IMG/VR virus record: IMGVR_UViG_2695420763_000009
Source of the DNA: a virus
Taxonomy: Duplodnaviria > Heunggongvirae > Uroviricota > Caudoviricetes
Direction: 5' to 3' (one strand)
Length of the DNA stretch: 11,058 bases
Position numbers and translations under genes: made by a program. The notes beneath the pieces were generated by a model. It ran no database searches. It was not told the DNA's origin and worked only from the letters and a program-made list of their open reading frames with translations. Positions 6,256 to 9,800 of the stretch are shown piece by piece (the first letter of the stretch is position 1; each line of letters starts with the position of its first letter).

Positions 6256-6341
6256 GACTCGAAAGCGTAGCTAAATTTCATTCGCCAAAAAGCCCGATGA
6301 TGAGCGACTCACTACTGGCCACAGTTTATTGGTTTTCGTAA
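6252..6341 (+). pseudogene. Q: Truncated lambda-type antiterminator Q (5' remnant, about 29 codons)
   Basis: MRLESVAKFHSPKSPMMSDS matches the lambda Q N-terminus; similarity ends near 6313 and the frame stops at 6339-6341, followed by AT-rich DNA. ATGA overlap with the ninH stop; ninI is absent. Confidence 0.7.
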
Positions 6342-6466
6342 CTGAGTCATTTTATTATTTTATTGCAACTTTTAATCTTTTATAGTGCGAAATAAATGGA
6401 GCTGGCATTCATTTCGCACTTTATGTTTTTGTTGGACTTATGTTATTTTGATTGAATTCAATTCAG

Positions 6467-7426
6467 TTAAAAAAAGAAGGCGATTGCTCCATTTATAAAT
6501 GAATAGTCATCCCCTGTCTTGAATTCTGATGTTACTTTATTAAATGCTAGTGTGAAGGCTACAGGTGCATACCCAATTGTTGCGCCAACTTGATATTCAT
6601 CAACAGTTTTGTTTAGCGATACTGTTGTTTGTTTCGTCTGTATTGTTTTTCCTTCGAGAGTATAGTTGCGATTGACATCTCGTCTTTCCATACCTGCAAA
6701 AATCTTGTATTTGAATCCGCTTGTATCGGACATATGCATTAAACCACGGGGAGCCAGCAGACCAAAGCCATTATCCGAATTGAAGGTTTTATCATTACCA
6801 ATGGCAATGGTTGCGCCATATGCTACATATTGAAATAAGTTTCCAGTAACAGCAGAAACTTCAGGGTATAATCCAACATTAGCACCTAAAATATCCATAC
6901 TTGGTGTCATGGATAGCATCCCTTTTACAGTATAACCGTAGCGATTCTCTATTTGATCATCCCATGCATGATATTTTTCTGCCCCAATAATCTCATGAGC
7001 TTTATTTTGTACTTTCTGACCGCCTGCGTCGGGGCCAACAACACCTATGTCAGTACCTAATCGATAGCGAATCCAGTCATTCGCAAGGGAGTTCCATTCA
7101 ATACCAGTGTGAGTGTATGCACTAAAAGCTCTGTCTCCAGTTACAGCTGTGTTGTGTCTTTTATTACTGCCTGATGGAGAGTAAATATCTTGCGCAATAT
7201 GGAGAGATAATTGGCTCGAGTCTGAGATATCGTGGCTATATCCCAGAAATAAGCCTTGTGAGTAATCATCTCTGTTTTCATGTTTATTGCCATAAATATC
7301 ATTAAGTATTGGTTGAAACTTCCCTGCATCATCATTTGCTAATGATAATGCAAGGCTGTTCGCGATAGCTGAACACGTGGTAAATGACAGAGCAATAAAG
7401 ACGCCAGCGATGACACTTTTTTTCAT
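6467..7426 (-). CDS. lpxR: Outer-membrane beta-barrel protein, probable lipid A 3'-O-deacylase LpxR
   Basis: 319 aa; signal peptide MKKSVIAGVFIALSFTTCSAIA with AIA cleavage motif; C-terminal aromatic ending AIAFFF; RBS AGGAAG 9 nt upstream. In mature numbering Asn9, Asp10, Ser34 and His122 fall where I recall the LpxR catalytic residues; precursor length matches. AT-rich codon usage. Confidence 0.6.
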   Translation of the reverse strand: MKKSVIAGVFIALSFTTCSAIANSLALSLANDDAGKFQPILNDIYGNKHENRDDYSQGLFLGYSHDISDSSQLSLHIAQDIYSPSGSNKRHNTAVTGDRAFSAYTHTGIEWNSLANDWIRYRLGTDIGVVGPDAGGQKVQNKAHEIIGAEKYHAWDDQIENRYGYTVKGMLSMTPSMDILGANVGLYPEVSAVTGNLFQYVAYGATIAIGNDKTFNSDNGFGLLAPRGLMHMSDTSGFKYKIFAGMERRDVNRNYTLEGKTIQTKQTTVSLNKTVDEYQVGATIGYAPVAFTLAFNKVTSEFKTGDDYSFINGAIAFFF

Positions 7427-7768
7427 ATGTTATTGTCTTCCTTTTTTTTGAATGGCGCGCGTATTTTACATACATGAGTTTGTAATACAAGGTGCGTAAT
7501 CAATATGATGTTTTATAATTGCGTGAGACAATTGATTTATTCGTTTTTTATTGCGGTTTTTATTATCTTTTAATGTAACGGTGTTTTTATTAAGTGTGTT
7601 TGCGTGGTGTTTTATGTTTTTTTATAATTTTTATTTTATTAAATTTAAAAGCATTAGTAATGGCTATTCTATATAGCAATATAAGAACTGTTACAAAAAA
7701 AGGGGGGGCAATTACAGGTAGTTATGGATGATGAGTGAAACAGATATTGGAGAACCGGGGAATGAATG

Positions 7769-7888
7769 ATGTCTGAGTCTTATATATCAGAACTCCTTCG
7801 CTGTCGCTGGGGGCTCCTGTGCTTATGTCGTTTCCCCGATTCGGTTTTGAACGATTACCGAATGTTGAAGAATTATGCCAAAATATAG
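7769..7888 (+). CDS. Candidate small upstream ORF (39 aa, Cys-rich)
   Basis: ATG 7769 preceded by GGAGAA/GGGG (7749-7760); MSESYISELLRCRWGLLCLCRFPDSVLNDYRMLKNYAKI; ends 15 nt before the ATG at 7903. Below the ORF-track cutoff; overlaps the alternative 7819 start of the next gene in another frame. Confidence 0.2.
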   Translation: MSESYISELLRCRWGLLCLCRFPDSVLNDYRMLKNYAKI

Positions 7889-7902
7889 AAAGGATTTACT
7901 GC

Positions 7903-8592
7903 ATGAATACCCAATATTTACAGTATGTTCGTGAGCAACTTATGGCAGCTACTGCTGACTTGAACGGAGCAACGAAAGGCCAGCTCGAAGCCTGGCAGGA
8001 GCATGCACAATTTGATACTGGTACATACAAACGAAAGAAGCCGCGCATTCTGGATGTGGTAACTGGCAAGATGATTACGCTGGATAATACGCCGACTTCC
8101 GGTAAGCAGTCGTACGCAAAAGGTTCATCCATTGCTTTGGTCAGCCCGGTTGAATTCTCAACCTCTTCATGGCGCCGCGCGGTTTTGTCTCTCGATGAAC
8201 ATCAGAAAGCATGGTTGCTTTGGTGTTACAGCGAAAGCGTTCGATGGGGGCATCAGGTCACCATAACGCAATGGGCATGGAGCGAGTTTAAAGATTTGTT
8301 AAGTAACAGAAAAATTGCAGGTAAGACACTGGATCGCCTGAAGACGTTAATCTGGCTGGCTGCACAGGATGTGAAGAGCGAACTTGCAGGGCGTGAGGCC
8401 TATGAATACCAGACACTGGCATCATTGGTGGGAGTGACAACAAAAAACTGGTCCGAGACATTTACTGAACGCTGGGTTGCAATGAAGCACATTTTTCTAC
8501 AGCTTGATAGTGATGCTTTATTGCTTGTGACGAGAACACGTTCAAAACAAAAGGCAGCATTTTTACAGCAAAATATTGCAAAACTGGATTAA
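7903..8592 (+). CDS. Hypothetical protein, possibly a Q-like late-gene antiterminator
   Basis: 229 aa from ATG 7903 (SD AAGGA 7890-7894, 8-nt spacing); alternative in-frame starts at 7819/7825 give 257 aa. Sits where lambdoid phages carry Q, after a truncated lambda Q, but has no Cys4 zinc motif. Function not established from sequence. Confidence 0.35.
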   Translation: MNTQYLQYVREQLMAATADLNGATKGQLEAWQEHAQFDTGTYKRKKPRILDVVTGKMITLDNTPTSGKQSYAKGSSIALVSPVEFSTSSWRRAVLSLDEHQKAWLLWCYSESVRWGHQVTITQWAWSEFKDLLSNRKIAGKTLDRLKTLIWLAAQDVKSELAGREAYEYQTLASLVGVTTKNWSETFTERWVAMKHIFLQLDSDALLLVTRTRSKQKAAFLQQNIAKLD

Positions 8593-8637
8593 AAGCCATA
8601 TACTTCATGCAAATTTGGTATGTTGTAAAAAATGTAT

Positions 8638-8664
8638 AAACCCGCTGCCGAGTGGGTTTTTTTT
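8638..8664 (+). terminator. Intrinsic terminator downstream of the 229-257 aa gene
   Basis: Stem AAACCCGC (8638-8645) pairs with GTGGGTTT (8652-8659) with one G-T wobble, 6-nt loop TGCCGA, followed by a T-run to 8664. Confidence 0.6.
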
Positions 8665-8736
8665 ATGCCCTGAGTTGTACTTGTACGGTAAACATGCTGG
8701 CTGCTATGTAATAGAGTTTTTTTAGCCTGTAACCTC

Positions 8737-8790
8737 TTGACGGCATTGAATTGCTTTTGTTATGAGTTGTAAGCCAATGTTATCATCTTG
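8737..8790 (+). promoter_or_regulatory. Candidate promoter for the membrane-protein gene
   Basis: -35-like TTGACG 8737-8742; alternative -35 TTGTTA 8758-8763 with 17-bp spacing to an extended -10 TGtTATCAT 8778-8786. Transcription start not determinable from sequence. Confidence 0.3.
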
Positions 8791-8803
8791 TATTGGGGTG
8801 GTT

Positions 8804-9520
8804 ATGAAGGATGGTGCGCTGCTCAGGAGTTCTTCACTTTTTATTGCCTACATGGGATGCCTTGGATGGGGGAGTGCTTATTTCTATGGATGGGGTACTT
8901 CTTTTTACTACGGCTTCCCATGGTGGATTGTAGGTGCTGGTGTTGATGATGTTGCCAGAAGTTTATTTTTTGCAGTTATCGTCATTGCTATATTTCTTAT
9001 CGGTTGGGGTATTGGTGTTGTATTCTTTTTCGCAGTGAAAAGAAAACATTCTATGCAAGAGCTAAATGTATTTCGCCTTTATTTTGCTGTGGAATTATTG
9101 TTTGTGCCGGCAATTATTGAGTTTTCTATATTGAGACAGAAGATTCAGGTACCTCTTTTGCTACTGTCAGCAGCGATTGCGCTGGCGGTTACAATTTCGA
9201 TAAGATCTTATGGGCGATTTTTATCGGTATCATGCTTCTATGATAAGCCATTTATAAAAAAACATTTTTTTGAGATTGTGATGATTGCTTTTGTGGCATA
9301 TTTTTGGCTTTTTTCATTTCTGACAGGATATTACAAACCACAGTTTAAGAAAGAATATGAAATGATTAATTATAATGATGGTTGGTATTATGTTCTTGCT
9401 CGTTATGATAATTGTCTGGTTTTGTCTACTTCTTTCAATGCAGGTAGTAAAAGGTTTGTCATTTATCAATCAGCACAAGATAAGAATCTTCAGGTTGATA
9501 TTGTAAGGACCAGAATTTAA
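8804..9520 (+). CDS. Hypothetical multi-pass inner-membrane protein with C-terminal soluble domain
   Basis: 238 aa from ATG 8804 (GGGGTGG upstream); about five hydrophobic segments (e.g. LFFAVIVIAIFLIGWGIGVVFFFAV, VPLLLLSAAIALAVTISI, FFEIVMIAFVAYFWLFSFLTGYY), Gly/aromatic-rich N-terminus, about 60-aa hydrophilic C-terminus. AT-rich codon usage; no recognisable motif. Upstream in-frame ATGs at 8762/8777 lack an RBS. Confidence 0.6.
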   Translation: MKDGALLRSSSLFIAYMGCLGWGSAYFYGWGTSFYYGFPWWIVGAGVDDVARSLFFAVIVIAIFLIGWGIGVVFFFAVKRKHSMQELNVFRLYFAVELLFVPAIIEFSILRQKIQVPLLLLSAAIALAVTISIRSYGRFLSVSCFYDKPFIKKHFFEIVMIAFVAYFWLFSFLTGYYKPQFKKEYEMINYNDGWYYVLARYDNCLVLSTSFNAGSKRFVIYQSAQDKNLQVDIVRTRI

Positions 9521-9653
9521 TTGGCTGCATAAATAATATTTTAAGTTGCAAGTTGGCTATTCGTAGGAATAGAACCTTAGGCATGCTGAATGCGTTTTCT
9601 GAACATTGTTTTATAAACTGTGTCTGCTTGCTGTTGTGATCCTGCTTTTAGTG

Positions 9654-9764
9654 ATGGTGATGATGGATTTCACCAGCAGGATAATGTTGGTACTGACTGA
9701 TGGCGCTCTGGTCTGCGGCATTGTGGTATTGCTGTGGCCGATGATGAAAGAACAGAATGAATAA
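9654..9764 (+). CDS. Candidate small hydrophobic protein (36 aa)
   Basis: MVMMDFTSRIMLVLTDGALVCGIVVLLWPMMKEQNE: a single predicted transmembrane segment with a charged tail; weak RBS; ends 4 nt before the -35 of the downstream promoter. Not in the ORF track (short). Confidence 0.25.
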   Translation: MVMMDFTSRIMLVLTDGALVCGIVVLLWPMMKEQNE

Positions 9765-9767
9765 TTC

Positions 9768-9800
9768 TTGACTTTTTTGTTTACTGTTTATTAAAAAATC
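9768..9800 (+). promoter_or_regulatory. Candidate late promoter (pR'-like)
   Basis: -35 TTGACT 9768-9773, T-rich spacer, -10-like TAAAAA around 9792-9797 (similar quality to lambda pR' TAAATT); an inverted repeat CCTCC-TT-GGAGG at 9816-9827 lies just downstream; located about 180 nt upstream of a strong terminator and ahead of the first late-region gene. Confidence 0.4.

What the first reader, a model, noticed from the sequence alone, without database searches (positions are those of the whole stretch)
6313..9770. AT-rich cargo island replacing the 3' part of lambda-type Q
The nin operon ends in a Q gene that matches lambda Q for about 20 codons and then breaks off into AT-rich DNA (by eye, much lower GC than flanking phage genes). 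The island carries a minus-strand outer-membrane gene, a different candidate late regulator, and a membrane protein, before phage-like sequence resumes at the pR'-like promoter. This looks like a recombination breakpoint inside Q with module replacement. ninI, which lies between ninH and Q in lambda, is also absent, with ninH fused directly to the Q start by an ATGA overlap.
Basis: partly seen in the sequence, partly recalled or inferred. Interest (0 to 1): 0.6.

Follow-up and report, generated by a model that had tools for sequence, protein, structure and literature searches.

The report
Truncated Q, lpxR moron, Q82 module
This E. coli prophage keeps only the first ~24 codons of a lambda-type late-gene activator (Q), followed by an AT-rich lipid A deacylase gene (lpxR) and a working phage-82-type Q with its own late promoter. 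The same arrangement is already sequenced and annotated in phage 434 and in hundreds of E. coli prophages, so it is ordinary.

Summary
The core observation is real. A lambda/HK97-type Q gene starts at 6252, is identical to lambda Q for 20 codons, and loses all homology by 6322. AT-rich DNA follows, carrying lpxR on the minus strand, then ylcG and a phage-82-type Q.

It is already known. Window 6241-11058 is 99.5% identical to phage 434, whose GenBank record calls the stub an N-terminal fragment of Q. Window 5421-11058 is 99.6% identical to prophage PP2 of EPEC E2348/69. NCBI's PGAP pipeline marks the stub as a pseudogene. The junction occurs in 620 of 5426 complete E. coli genomes.

The interpretation needs three corrections:
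- **Replaced cassette:** it is 6323-8659, not 6313-9770. It is a composite of an lpxR moron (6323-7756, 35.8% GC) and an 82-type ylcG-Q-pR' unit (7757 to about 8659, about 46% GC). Phage 2B8 has an intact lambda-type Q, and its homology to the window resumes at 8660.
- **Promoter at 9768:** the TTGACT there sits 32 bp upstream of the PasD2 small RNA (9805-9976, 100% identical to the EPEC gene). The cognate late promoter is at 8576-8604.
- **ninH-Q overlap:** the ATGA overlap is the native HK97-type arrangement, not a ninI deletion.

Interest is low.

The parts
6067..6255 (+). ninH, the last intact gene of the nin operon. Its stop overlaps the Q-stub start by ATGA.
   Evidence: PF06322 hit, E 2e-24. 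96.6% nt identity to HK97 through 6322. The same 4-nt overlap between gp68 and Q is present in HK97.
6252..6341 (+). Stub of a lambda/HK97-type Q antiterminator gene. Codons 1-20 are identical to lambda Q, codons 21-24 are partly similar, and five unrelated codons and a stop follow. The breakpoint zone is 6312-6322.
   Evidence: Alignment with lambda, HK97, 2B8 and 434 and blastn end points at 6319-6322. The 434 record calls it an N-terminal fragment of Q. PGAP calls it a pseudogene missing its C-terminus. PHROG 127 (Q-like) matches residues 1-24 only.
6323..7756 (.). The lpxR moron: 1434 bp, 35.8% GC, lying between the Q stub and the ribosome-binding site of ylcG.
   Evidence: GC figures. It is absent from phage 82 and PhiR47_2, where rusA abuts ylcG. 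It is present at 99% identity or more in 615 of the 622 E. coli genomes that carry it.
6384..6420 (.). A 14-15 bp hairpin between the convergent Q stub and lpxR. On the + strand it is followed by a U-rich tract (6421-6433). It is a candidate terminator for transcripts that are not antiterminated, and for lpxR.
   Evidence: Folding gives z = -4.1 on the minus strand and -2.2 on the plus strand. The stem is conserved in 49 IMG/VR copies, and the few SNPs fall mostly in the loop.
6467..7426 (-). lpxR, an outer-membrane lipid A 3'-O-deacylase (319 aa).
   Evidence: PF09982 hit, E 7e-40. Salmonella LpxR structure 3FID matches at E 1.8e-152 over the whole mature protein. Active-site residues are conserved. 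The 1434-bp segment that contains the gene is 99.6% identical to the EHEC Sakai Sp3 region annotated lpxR (ECs_0814).
7427..7756 (.). A very AT-rich region (29.5% GC for 7427-7765) upstream of lpxR. It presumably holds the lpxR promoter and regulatory region.
   Evidence: GC. lpxR needs Pch and Ler for activation in EHEC (Ogawa et al. 2018, as summarised in PMC6393859). No promoter was mapped here.
7766..7888 (+). A ylcG-family small gene (orf45 of phage 82). It is the first gene of the 82-type module.
   Evidence: NF033498 hit, E 7e-13. Homology to phage 82 begins at 7757, at the ylcG ribosome-binding site.
7903..8592 (+). Phage-82-type Q antiterminator (229 aa). This is the functional late-gene activator.
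   Evidence: PF06323 hit, E 1e-91. 89% amino-acid identity to phage 82 Q over the full length. The region is 99.5% identical to plaque-forming phage 434.
8576..8667 (+). Candidate 82-type late promoter pR' and its leader.
- -35 TTGCAA at 8576-8581 and -10 TATACT at 8599-8604, giving an inferred start at about 8611.
- An extended -10-like pause element, TGgTATGTT, at 8616-8624 (+6 to +14), and a T at +25.
- A terminator hairpin at 8638-8659 followed by a T run.
   Evidence: Promoter and terminator scan and fold. The register matches the published 82 pR' (extended -10-like element, discriminator at +15-17, pause at +25/26; PMC5001585). PhiR47_2 has GCC at +15-17 in the same register. The 434 record annotates a terminator here.
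8568..8581 (-). A CII-type box, TTGCAATATTTTGC, on the antisense strand in the 3' end of Q (paQ-like).
   Evidence: Pattern search: two hits in the window against 0.86 expected, so not significant on its own. The 434 record annotates it as the paQ -35/CII site.
8777..9520 (+). A 247-aa membrane protein of unknown function. It is a late-operon accessory gene and not part of the replaced cassette.
   Evidence: PHROG 1521, function unknown, E 2e-154. No Pfam, NCBIfam or PADLOC hit. It also follows an intact lambda-type Q in phage 2B8.
9606..9764 (+). A TciB-like DUF3927 small membrane protein.
   Evidence: PF13064 hit, E 3e-14. PHROG 1470.
9805..9976 (+). PasD2 small RNA gene (STnc100-like). A TTGACT -35-like hexamer lies upstream at 9768-9773, and the intrinsic terminator is at 9950-9968.
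   Evidence: 100% identical to NC_011601 741157-741328, which is PasD2 (table S6 of PMC8550237). Rfam STnc100 scores 41.4 bits against a gathering score of 47, E 9e-7. Terminator. Fold z = -3.1.
10063..11058 (+). The 5' part of a SASA-family (NanS-p-like) carbohydrate esterase, 56% GC. It runs off the window.
   Evidence: PF08410 and PF03629 hits. Annotated as such in 434 and by PGAP.

Best explanation
**What it is.** This is the late-regulation junction of an E. coli lambdoid prophage. An ancestral lambda/HK97-type Q gene was cut at codons 21-24, and everything from there through its cognate late promoter was replaced.

The replacement (6323-8659) is a composite of two parts:
- An AT-rich lpxR moron on the opposite strand. 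It is a lysogenic-conversion gene for lipid A 3'-O-deacylation.
- A phage-82-type ylcG-Q gene pair with its own late promoter, sigma70-pause element and terminator.

**How it works (inferred).** N-antiterminated transcription from pR runs through the nin genes and the 29-codon Q stub. It then passes the hairpin at 6384-6420 and continues antisense across lpxR into ylcG and Q. The 82-type Q loads onto RNA polymerase paused at about +25 of the promoter at 8576-8604. Polymerase then reads through the terminator at 8638-8659, the downstream accessory genes and the PasD2 terminator, into the esterase and lysis genes.

In the lysogen, lpxR and the sRNA PasD2 are expressed from their own promoters.

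**The stub.** The Q stub is a pseudogene. Its 82 bp of retained homology (ribosome-binding site plus 71 nt) is the only sequence through which the cassette could have been recombined onto two different nin arms, one ending in ninH and one in ninI.

**Shown here:** the sequence identities, the boundaries, the composition and the population distribution.
**Inferred:** the transcription path, the promoter function and the recombination history.
For: **Identity**
- Window 6241-11058 is 99.5% identical to phage 434. That record annotates the same parts, including 'antiterminator-like protein, N-terminal fragment'.
- Window 5421-11058 is 99.56% identical to E2348/69 prophage PP2.
- PGAP annotates a Q pseudogene at this position.

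**Boundaries**
- Left breakpoint.
- Right breakpoint against phage 2B8 (intact Q) at 8660.
- Homology to phage 82 starts at 7757.
- Homology to PhiR47_2 (rusA-ylcG-Q) runs through the promoter and pause element, then decays.

**Composition:**

**Gene identities**
- LpxR.
- Q82 type.

**Late promoter:** anatomy. It is in register with the published 82 pR' (PMC5001585).

**Viability:** 434 is a plaque-forming phage that was propagated for sequencing (PMC9119081), so the arrangement supports lytic growth.

**Distribution**
- lpxR occurs in 622 genomes, the stub-lpxR junction in 620, and the ninH-type flank in 189.
- Of 50 IMG/VR contigs, 22 have the ninH flank and 26 the ninI flank. The right side is always the same.

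**A laboratory analogue:** 434B swapped its Q and late promoter region with the DLP12 prophage through a crossover inside ylcG.
Against: - No expression data exist for this prophage. The transcription path across antisense lpxR and the use of the 8576-8604 promoter are inferred from sequence and from phage 82 and 434.
- The pause region has GTA at +15-17 where phage 82 has GCC. Mutating GCC shortens the pause (PMC5001585), so pausing may be weaker here.
- The phage 82 pR' sequence itself could not be retrieved for a direct alignment. X92588 ends at the Q stop.
- The order of events cannot be resolved, because the copies are almost identical. One replacement and an insertion followed by a deletion are both possible.
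- Some carriers, such as Sakai Sp3, look degraded: a bet pseudogene lies upstream and no replication or immunity genes are annotated before the nin genes.
Confidence: 0.88

Rival explanations
1. One reading: a single AT-rich cargo island, 6313-9770, acquired in one event. It ends where phage sequence resumes at a pR'-like promoter near 9770.
For: - Average GC of 6313-9770 is 38.8%, against 48.1% to the left and 56.2% in the esterase gene.
- A TTGACT hexamer at 9768 resembles the lambda pR' -35.
- All 50 IMG/VR copies that extend far enough carry the same gene order out to PasD.
Against: - The ylcG-Q82 block in the middle has normal GC.
- Phage 2B8 has an intact lambda-type Q followed by the same membrane protein, tciB and downstream DNA. 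Homology to the window resumes at 8660.
- Phage 82 and PhiR47_2 have ylcG-Q without lpxR.
- 9805-9976 is the PasD2 sRNA.
- The Q-proximal promoter, pause element and terminator sit at 8576-8659.
Confidence: 0.07
2. The 29-codon ORF (6252-6341) is a functional small gene in its own right. It might encode a peptide with residual Q-related or regulatory activity, and would then not be a pseudogene.
For: - The ORF keeps its ribosome-binding site, its start codon and the translational-coupling overlap with ninH or ninI.
- It is intact in all 49 IMG/VR copies examined. There are three SNPs, of which one is non-synonymous.
- The 434 authors annotated it as a CDS.
- PHROG 21867, a family of short proteins (profile length 58), matches residues 1-24.
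Against: - The copies are too similar to show purifying selection.
- The last five codons and the stop come from unrelated AT-rich DNA.
- PGAP treats it as a truncated pseudogene.
- Only 24 of about 207 residues of Q remain, and no Pfam domain is detected.
Confidence: 0.05
3. The Q stub and lpxR segment are inert debris in a decaying prophage, and the downstream Q82-type module is no longer used.
For: - Sakai Sp3, which carries the cassette, looks degraded: a bet pseudogene lies upstream and no replication or immunity genes are annotated before the nin genes.
- E2348/69 PP2 has a rusA pseudogene.
- The stub itself is a pseudogene.
Against: - Plaque-forming phage 434 carries the same cassette at 99.5% identity.
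- The Q82-type ORF, the promoter, the pause element and the terminator are intact.
- In this window all nin, replication and immunity genes are intact in PGAP's annotation of a 99.8% identical prophage.
Confidence: 0.05

Closest known systems
Phage 434 late-regulatory region (GenBank OL657226; Feiss et al. 2022, PMC9119081)
   Same: 99.5% identical from the Q-stub ribosome-binding site (6241) to the end of the window. It has the same stub, lpxR, ylcG, Q82-like gene, terminator, membrane protein, TciB and esterase, and all are annotated.
   Different: - The left flank in 434 is ninG-ninI (lambda type). Here it is DUF1364-rusA-ninH (HK97 type).
- 434 lacks 8 bp of a short duplication near 6355.
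- The 434 record annotates a 'putative membrane protein' CDS where PasD2 lies.
Prophage PP2 of EPEC O127:H6 E2348/69 (NC_011601) and prophage Sp3 of EHEC O157:H7 Sakai
   Same: - PP2 is 99.56% identical over 5421-11058, including the ninH-stub junction and PasD2.
- Sp3 carries the same stub flank, lpxR (ECs_0814), Q and membrane protein.
   Different: - PP2 has an internal stop in rusA.
- Sp3 has the ninI (pphA) left flank and lacks the esterase.
- The replication and immunity arm to the left differs.
Phage 82 rus-orf45-Q module with 82 pR' (X92588; Roberts-lab pause studies, PMC5001585)
   Same: - ylcG and Q are about 90% nt identical, and Q is 89% identical at the amino-acid level.
- The promoter-proximal anatomy is the same: an extended -10-like element at +6 to +14, an A/T-rich stretch and a U at +25.
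   Different: - In phage 82, rus directly precedes orf45, with no Q stub and no lpxR.
- +15-17 is GTA here and GCC in phage 82.
Lambda, HK97 and 2B8 Q genes (intact 207-aa lambda-type Q)
   Same: The first 61 nt are identical. The upstream ribosome-binding site and the ATGA overlap are shared, and HK97 has the same ninH-Q adjacency.
   Different: Codons from about 25 to 207 and the lambda-type pR' are absent from the window. In 2B8 they occupy 691 bp, where the window has 2340 bp.
434B, a laboratory-derived Q-module replacement by recombination with the DLP12 cryptic prophage
   Same: It replaces the Q activator and late promoter through a crossover in a short shared sequence next to Q (inside ylcG). 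It shows how such module swaps arise.
   Different: The crossover is in ylcG rather than in Q. The incoming module is the DLP12 Q, nmpC and IS5.

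Membership tests
Lambda-type Q antiterminator (intact gene) | A full-length protein of about 207 aa, homologous to lambda Q along its whole length. | tested here: not met
   Only codons 1-24 are homologous. The remainder is absent from the window. PGAP annotates it as a pseudogene.
Phage-82-type Q antiterminator (Pfam PF06323) | Full-length sequence homology to phage 82 Q. | tested here: met
   PF06323 hit, E 1e-91, covering positions 1-216 of 220. 203 of 229 residues are identical to phage 82 Q with no gaps.
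Phage-82-type Q antiterminator (Pfam PF06323) | The gene is followed at once by a late promoter with a sigma70 pause-inducing extended -10-like element (pause at about +25) and a downstream terminator. | tested here: met
   By sequence pattern only:
- -35 and -10 at 8576-8604.
- TGgTATGTT at +6 to +14.
- Terminator at 8638-8659.
- The register agrees with PMC5001585 and with PhiR47_2.
- +15-17 differs (GTA against GCC).
Phage-82-type Q antiterminator (Pfam PF06323) | Q-dependent antitermination activity and binding to a Q-binding element at the promoter. | not testable with these tools
   This needs in vitro transcription or reporter assays. The only indirect support is that phage 434, which has the same module, is viable.
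LpxR lipid A 3'-O-deacylase (Pfam PF09982) | Family profile match and homology to the solved Salmonella LpxR beta-barrel. | tested here: met
   PF09982 hit, E 7e-40. 3FID matches at E 1.8e-152 over residues 24-319.
LpxR lipid A 3'-O-deacylase (Pfam PF09982) | Conserved active-site residues in 3FID numbering: N9, D10, T34, K67, H122, Y130. The list is recalled from Rutten et al. 2009, not read here. | tested here: met
   All are conserved except T34, which is Ser and so keeps the hydroxyl.
LpxR lipid A 3'-O-deacylase (Pfam PF09982) | Demonstrated deacylase activity. | not testable with these tools
   The 1434-bp segment that contains the gene is 99.6% identical to the EHEC Sakai region annotated lpxR. 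Activity and Pch/Ler regulation of that gene are reported by Ogawa et al. 2018, as summarised in PMC6393859.
Phage moron (independent accessory transcription unit) | Present between two genes that are adjacent in related phages. | tested here: met
   rus-ylcG are adjacent in phage 82 and PhiR47_2. ninH-Q are adjacent in HK97.
Phage moron (independent accessory transcription unit) | Base composition different from the surrounding phage genes. | tested here: met
   35.8% GC against 48.1%. lpxR GC3 is 0.30, against 0.44-0.59 in the replication and nin genes (P to ninH). p = 6e-7.
Phage moron (independent accessory transcription unit) | Its own promoter and terminator. | tested here: inconclusive
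   - A hairpin lies downstream of lpxR, but it has no U tract on the lpxR strand.
- No convincing promoter was called.
- Independent regulation is reported in the literature.
PasD / STnc100 prophage sRNA | Sequence identity to the experimentally detected PasD2 RNA, in the same genomic context (between the DUF3927 gene and the esterase gene). | tested here: met
   100% identity over 301 nt, including the 172-nt RNA. Coordinates and context come from the PMC8550237 supplement and.
PasD / STnc100 prophage sRNA | Reaches the Rfam STnc100 (RF02076) gathering score. | tested here: not met
   41.4 bits against a gathering score of 47, although the match is full length and E is 9e-7. The 2026 preprint also reports PasD as a diverged structural relative of STnc100.

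The most novel reading that the evidence does not exclude
The retained Q stub, the hairpin at 6384-6420 and the 1.4-kb antisense-lpxR leader may not be neutral debris. They could work as a timing and coupling device. Expression of the 82-type Q would then need N-modified polymerase to cross an untranslated stretch that is transcribed convergently. Strong lpxR transcription, driven by Ler and Pch during infection, would dampen or delay late-gene expression. Prophage induction would in turn silence lpxR.

Separately, the 82-bp stub would persist because it is the recombination handle that lets the cassette move between ninH-type and ninI-type phages.
Probability: 0.1. Interest if true: 0.4.

Novelty: already known. 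Interest (0 to 1): 0.13.

Why it matters
It adds little that is new. The truncated Q, lpxR, the 82-type Q and PasD2 are all annotated or published for phage 434, EPEC E2348/69 and EHEC Sakai.

The case is a clean, well-bounded illustration of three points:
- A Q gene and its cognate promoter and pause site travel together as one unit.
- A virulence-related moron (lpxR) rides between modules.
- An 82-bp pseudogene remnant is enough shared sequence for the cassette to sit on two different nin arms, in 189 and about 431 of the 620 E. coli genomes that carry it.

There is also practical value for annotation. The CDS called across 9821-10009 in the phage 434 record, and the minus-strand pseudogene called there by PGAP, overlap a validated sRNA.

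Tried and rejected
- **Rfam at gathering thresholds:** nothing in the window. **ARAGORN:** no tRNAs.
- **Exact-junction 34-mer in GTDB species representatives:** 0 hits. This gives no evidence for the junction outside E. coli, but there is only one genome per species.
- **PDB sequence search with the 82-type Q:** no solved relative.
- **PADLOC and NCBIfam** for the membrane protein, TciB and LpxR gave nothing useful.
- **Literature on phage 434:** a search for 434/434B papers by name found nothing. The accession search found the genome announcement, which does not discuss the Q fragment. Only the GenBank record does.
- **Phage 82 pR' sequence:** I tried to retrieve it from PMC5001585 for a direct alignment, and it is not in the held text. 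X92588 stops at the Q stop codon.
- **Selection on the 29-codon ORF:** there are only 3 SNPs among 49 copies, so the test has no power.
- **Simple insertion into Q:** rejected, because the 3' part of Q is absent.
- **A ninI deletion:** rejected, because ninH-Q is the native arrangement in HK97-type phages.
- **The TTGACT at 9768 as the late promoter:** rejected, because PasD2 starts 32 nt downstream of the hexamer and the Q-proximal promoter, pause element and terminator lie at 8576-8659.

Full report
**What the window is.** The window is the immunity, replication and nin region and the early part of the late region of an E. coli lambdoid prophage.
- Twenty-four complete E. coli genomes carry at least 80% of it at 99.6-99.9% identity among those listed.
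- PGAP's annotation of one of them reads, in order: LexA-family repressor, Cro, CII, replication proteins, Ren, NinB, Dam-type methylase, NinE, NinX, NinF, DUF1364, RusA and NinH.
- Next come an 'antitermination protein, incomplete, missing C-terminus' pseudogene, LpxR on the minus strand, YlcG, 'bacteriophage antitermination protein Q', a hypothetical protein, a DUF3927 protein and a SASA esterase.

**The finding is already sequenced and annotated elsewhere.**
- Window 6241-11058 is 99.5% identical to phage 434, OL657226.
- That record annotates a 29-codon 'antiterminator-like protein ... N-terminal fragment' of lambda Q.
- It also annotates the LpxR deacylase, a YlcG-like protein, a 'Q82-like' activator, a terminator just after it, a membrane protein, TciB and the esterase.
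- Window 5421-11058 is 99.56% identical to prophage PP2 of EPEC E2348/69.
- EHEC Sakai prophage Sp3 carries the same lpxR (ECs_0814) and the same Q.

**Left breakpoint.**
- An alignment of the window with 434, HK97, lambda and 2B8 shows identity from the Q start codon (6252) to 6312, which is 20 codons.
- Scattered matches continue to about 6322 (LLAT in place of PRAT). There is no similarity after that.
- blastn end points are 6319 and 6322.
- The rest of lambda-type Q is absent from the window. This is therefore a replacement or deletion, not a simple insertion.

**Right boundaries: three modules, not one island.**
- *The 82-type module.* Phage 82 (X92588) has rus-orf45(ylcG)-Q. Its homology to the window starts at 7757, at the ylcG ribosome-binding site. 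The Q proteins are 89% identical. So 6323-7756 is an lpxR moron set between the Q stub and an 82-type ylcG-Q module.
- *The late-operon genes.* Phage 2B8 has ninI, an intact lambda-type Q, and then the same membrane protein and DUF3927 gene. Its homology to the window stops at 6319 and resumes at 8660 at 97% identity.
- *Size of the replacement.* Relative to a phage with an intact Q, 691 bp (the rest of Q plus the lambda-type pR') are replaced by 2340 bp (6320-8659).
- *Consequence.* The genes from 8660 onward are not part of the replaced cassette.

**Composition.**

| Segment | GC |
|---|---|
| 1-6251 | 48.1% |
| lpxR moron, 6323-7756 | 35.8% |
| lpxR-ylcG intergenic region, 7427-7765 | 29.5% |
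| Q82-type gene | 46.1% |
| 8660-10062 | 38.8% |
| esterase | 56.2% |

- lpxR has a GC3 of 0.30.
- The Q82-type block does not differ from the left arm (p = 0.2).

**Gene identities.**
- *LpxR.* It hits PF09982 and the Salmonella LpxR structure 3FID at E 1.8e-152. The residues I recall as catalytic are conserved: N9, D10, K67, H122 and Y130, with T34 changed to Ser.
- *LpxR in EHEC.* This gene is reported to deacylate lipid A, to reduce phagocytosis and to need Pch and Ler for activation (Ogawa et al. 2018, as summarised in PMC6393859).
- *The 247-aa membrane protein.* It belongs to PHROG 1521, of unknown function. It has no Pfam, NCBIfam or PADLOC match.

**Where the late promoter is.**
- A sigma70-like promoter overlaps the Q stop codon, with TTGCAA at 8576-8581, a 17-nt spacer and TATACT at 8599-8604. 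A terminator lies at 8638-8659.
- With a start at about 8611, the sequence TGgTATGTT occupies +6 to +14, an A-rich stretch follows, and +25 is T.
- The published phage 82 pR' has an extended -10-like pause element, a discriminator at +15-17 (GCC) and a pause at +25/26 (PMC5001585).
- PhiR47_2 has a rusA-ylcG-Q arrangement. It conserves the -35, the -10 and the pause element, and it has GCC at exactly +15-17 in this register. Its homology to the window decays after that point.
- This supports the register and shows that Q, its promoter and its pause site are inherited together.
- The window and phage 434 have GTA at +15-17.

**What sits at 9770.**
- The TTGACT at 9768-9773 lies 32 nt upstream of the PasD2 small RNA.
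- Window 9765-10065 is 100% identical to E2348/69 PP2, where PasD2 is mapped to 741157-741328 (PMC8550237 supplement; alignment). That corresponds to window 9805-9976.
- PasD1 and PasD2 were detected by RIL-seq and confirmed with a shared Northern probe, and their stability depends on Hfq.
- The same stretch gives a full-length but sub-threshold match to Rfam STnc100: 41.4 bits against a gathering score of 47.
- A 2026 preprint reports that PasD is a structural relative of STnc100. It also reports that Q and LpxR genes lie within 10 kb of more than 98% of PasD1 and PasD2 hits.
- The strong terminator at 9950-9968 is the sRNA's terminator.

**ninI.**
- The ATGA overlap between ninH and Q, with no ninI, is the native arrangement in HK97, HK022, HK620 and others. 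These match the window at about 97% through 6322.
- The same stub-lpxR cassette also occurs with a ninG-ninI left arm in 434 and in O157, O121 and other strains.

**Population picture.**
- lpxR DNA is in 622 of 5426 complete E. coli genomes.
- The stub-lpxR junction is in 620 genomes.
- The ninH-type junction is in 189 genomes.
- Of 50 IMG/VR contigs holding the exact junction, 22 have the ninH arm and 26 the ninI arm. Every contig that extends far enough has the same lpxR, ylcG, Q82 type, pR', membrane protein, tciB and PasD order.
- The two arm types diverge immediately upstream of the Q ribosome-binding site.
- The only sequence a stub-bearing phage shares with an intact-Q phage between the nin genes and lpxR is therefore the 82 bp at 6241-6322. 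That is where the exchange must have happened. This last step is an inference.
- The 434B isolate shows the same kind of event in the laboratory. Its Q, late promoter and lysis region were replaced from the DLP12 prophage through a crossover inside ylcG.

**Mechanism (inferred).**
- Delayed-early transcription from pR, made terminator-resistant by N, must pass the stub and the hairpin at 6384-6420. That hairpin has a U-rich tail on the + strand.
- Transcription then crosses 1.4 kb antisense to lpxR to reach ylcG-Q.
- Q then acts at the 8576-8604 promoter.
- Phage 434 carries the identical cassette and forms plaques, so this arrangement works.
- lpxR and PasD2 are lysogen-expressed accessory functions.

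**Verdict.** Nothing here lies outside what is already annotated or published, so I rate it as already known and of low interest.

Noticed in passing
window 9805-9976 (+), overlapping ORF 9821-10009: The validated sRNA PasD2 lies here. The phage 434 record annotates a 62-aa 'putative membrane protein' CDS across it, and PGAP annotates a frameshifted minus-strand pseudogene. Both protein calls are probably spurious.
   Followed up: yes
window 8599-8668 (+): There is a weak, full-length match to Rfam STnc240 (28.2 bits, gathering score 55, E 0.31). It coincides exactly with the predicted short pR' leader and terminator transcript. This hints that some Salmonella 'sRNAs' are Q82-type late-promoter leaders.
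   Followed up: no
window 8568-8581 (-) and 1330-1343 (-): The window has only two perfect CII boxes (TTGCN6TTGC). One is antisense in the 3' end of the Q82-type gene, where it overlaps the pR' -35 (paQ-like). The other is antisense in the 5' part of the CII-family gene, where pRE would be expected. The count is not significant (0.86 expected), but both positions make biological sense.
   Followed up: partly
window 8625-8627: The pause-region 'discriminator' at +15-17 is GTA here and in phage 434, but GCC in PhiR47_2 and in published phage 82. Mutating GCC shortens the pause in vitro, so this variant may pause less.
   Followed up: partly
window 6351-6366: This is a short AT-rich direct repeat (TTTTATTA TTTTATT). 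Phage 434 lacks 8 bp of it, while all 49 IMG/VR copies examined have the longer form seen in the window.
   Followed up: partly
window 8777-9520 (+): A 247-aa multi-pass membrane protein (PHROG 1521, no known function, 36% GC) is conserved just downstream of both lambda-type and 82-type Q modules. It is a late-operon moron of unknown role.
   Followed up: partly
window 7427-7765: This 339-bp intergenic region is 29.5% GC and contains only short hydrophobic ORFs of 41-45 aa, which are probably artefacts of the T-rich composition. No Rfam hit was found even at relaxed thresholds. It is presumably the regulated lpxR promoter region.
   Followed up: no
junction 34-mer, window 6305-6338: The 34-mer is absent from all GTDB species-representative genomes, yet the junction it spans occurs in 620 of 5426 complete E. 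coli genomes and the exact 34-mer in 50 IMG/VR contigs. On this limited sampling the cassette looks confined to E. coli lineages, many of them EHEC or EPEC.
   Followed up: partly
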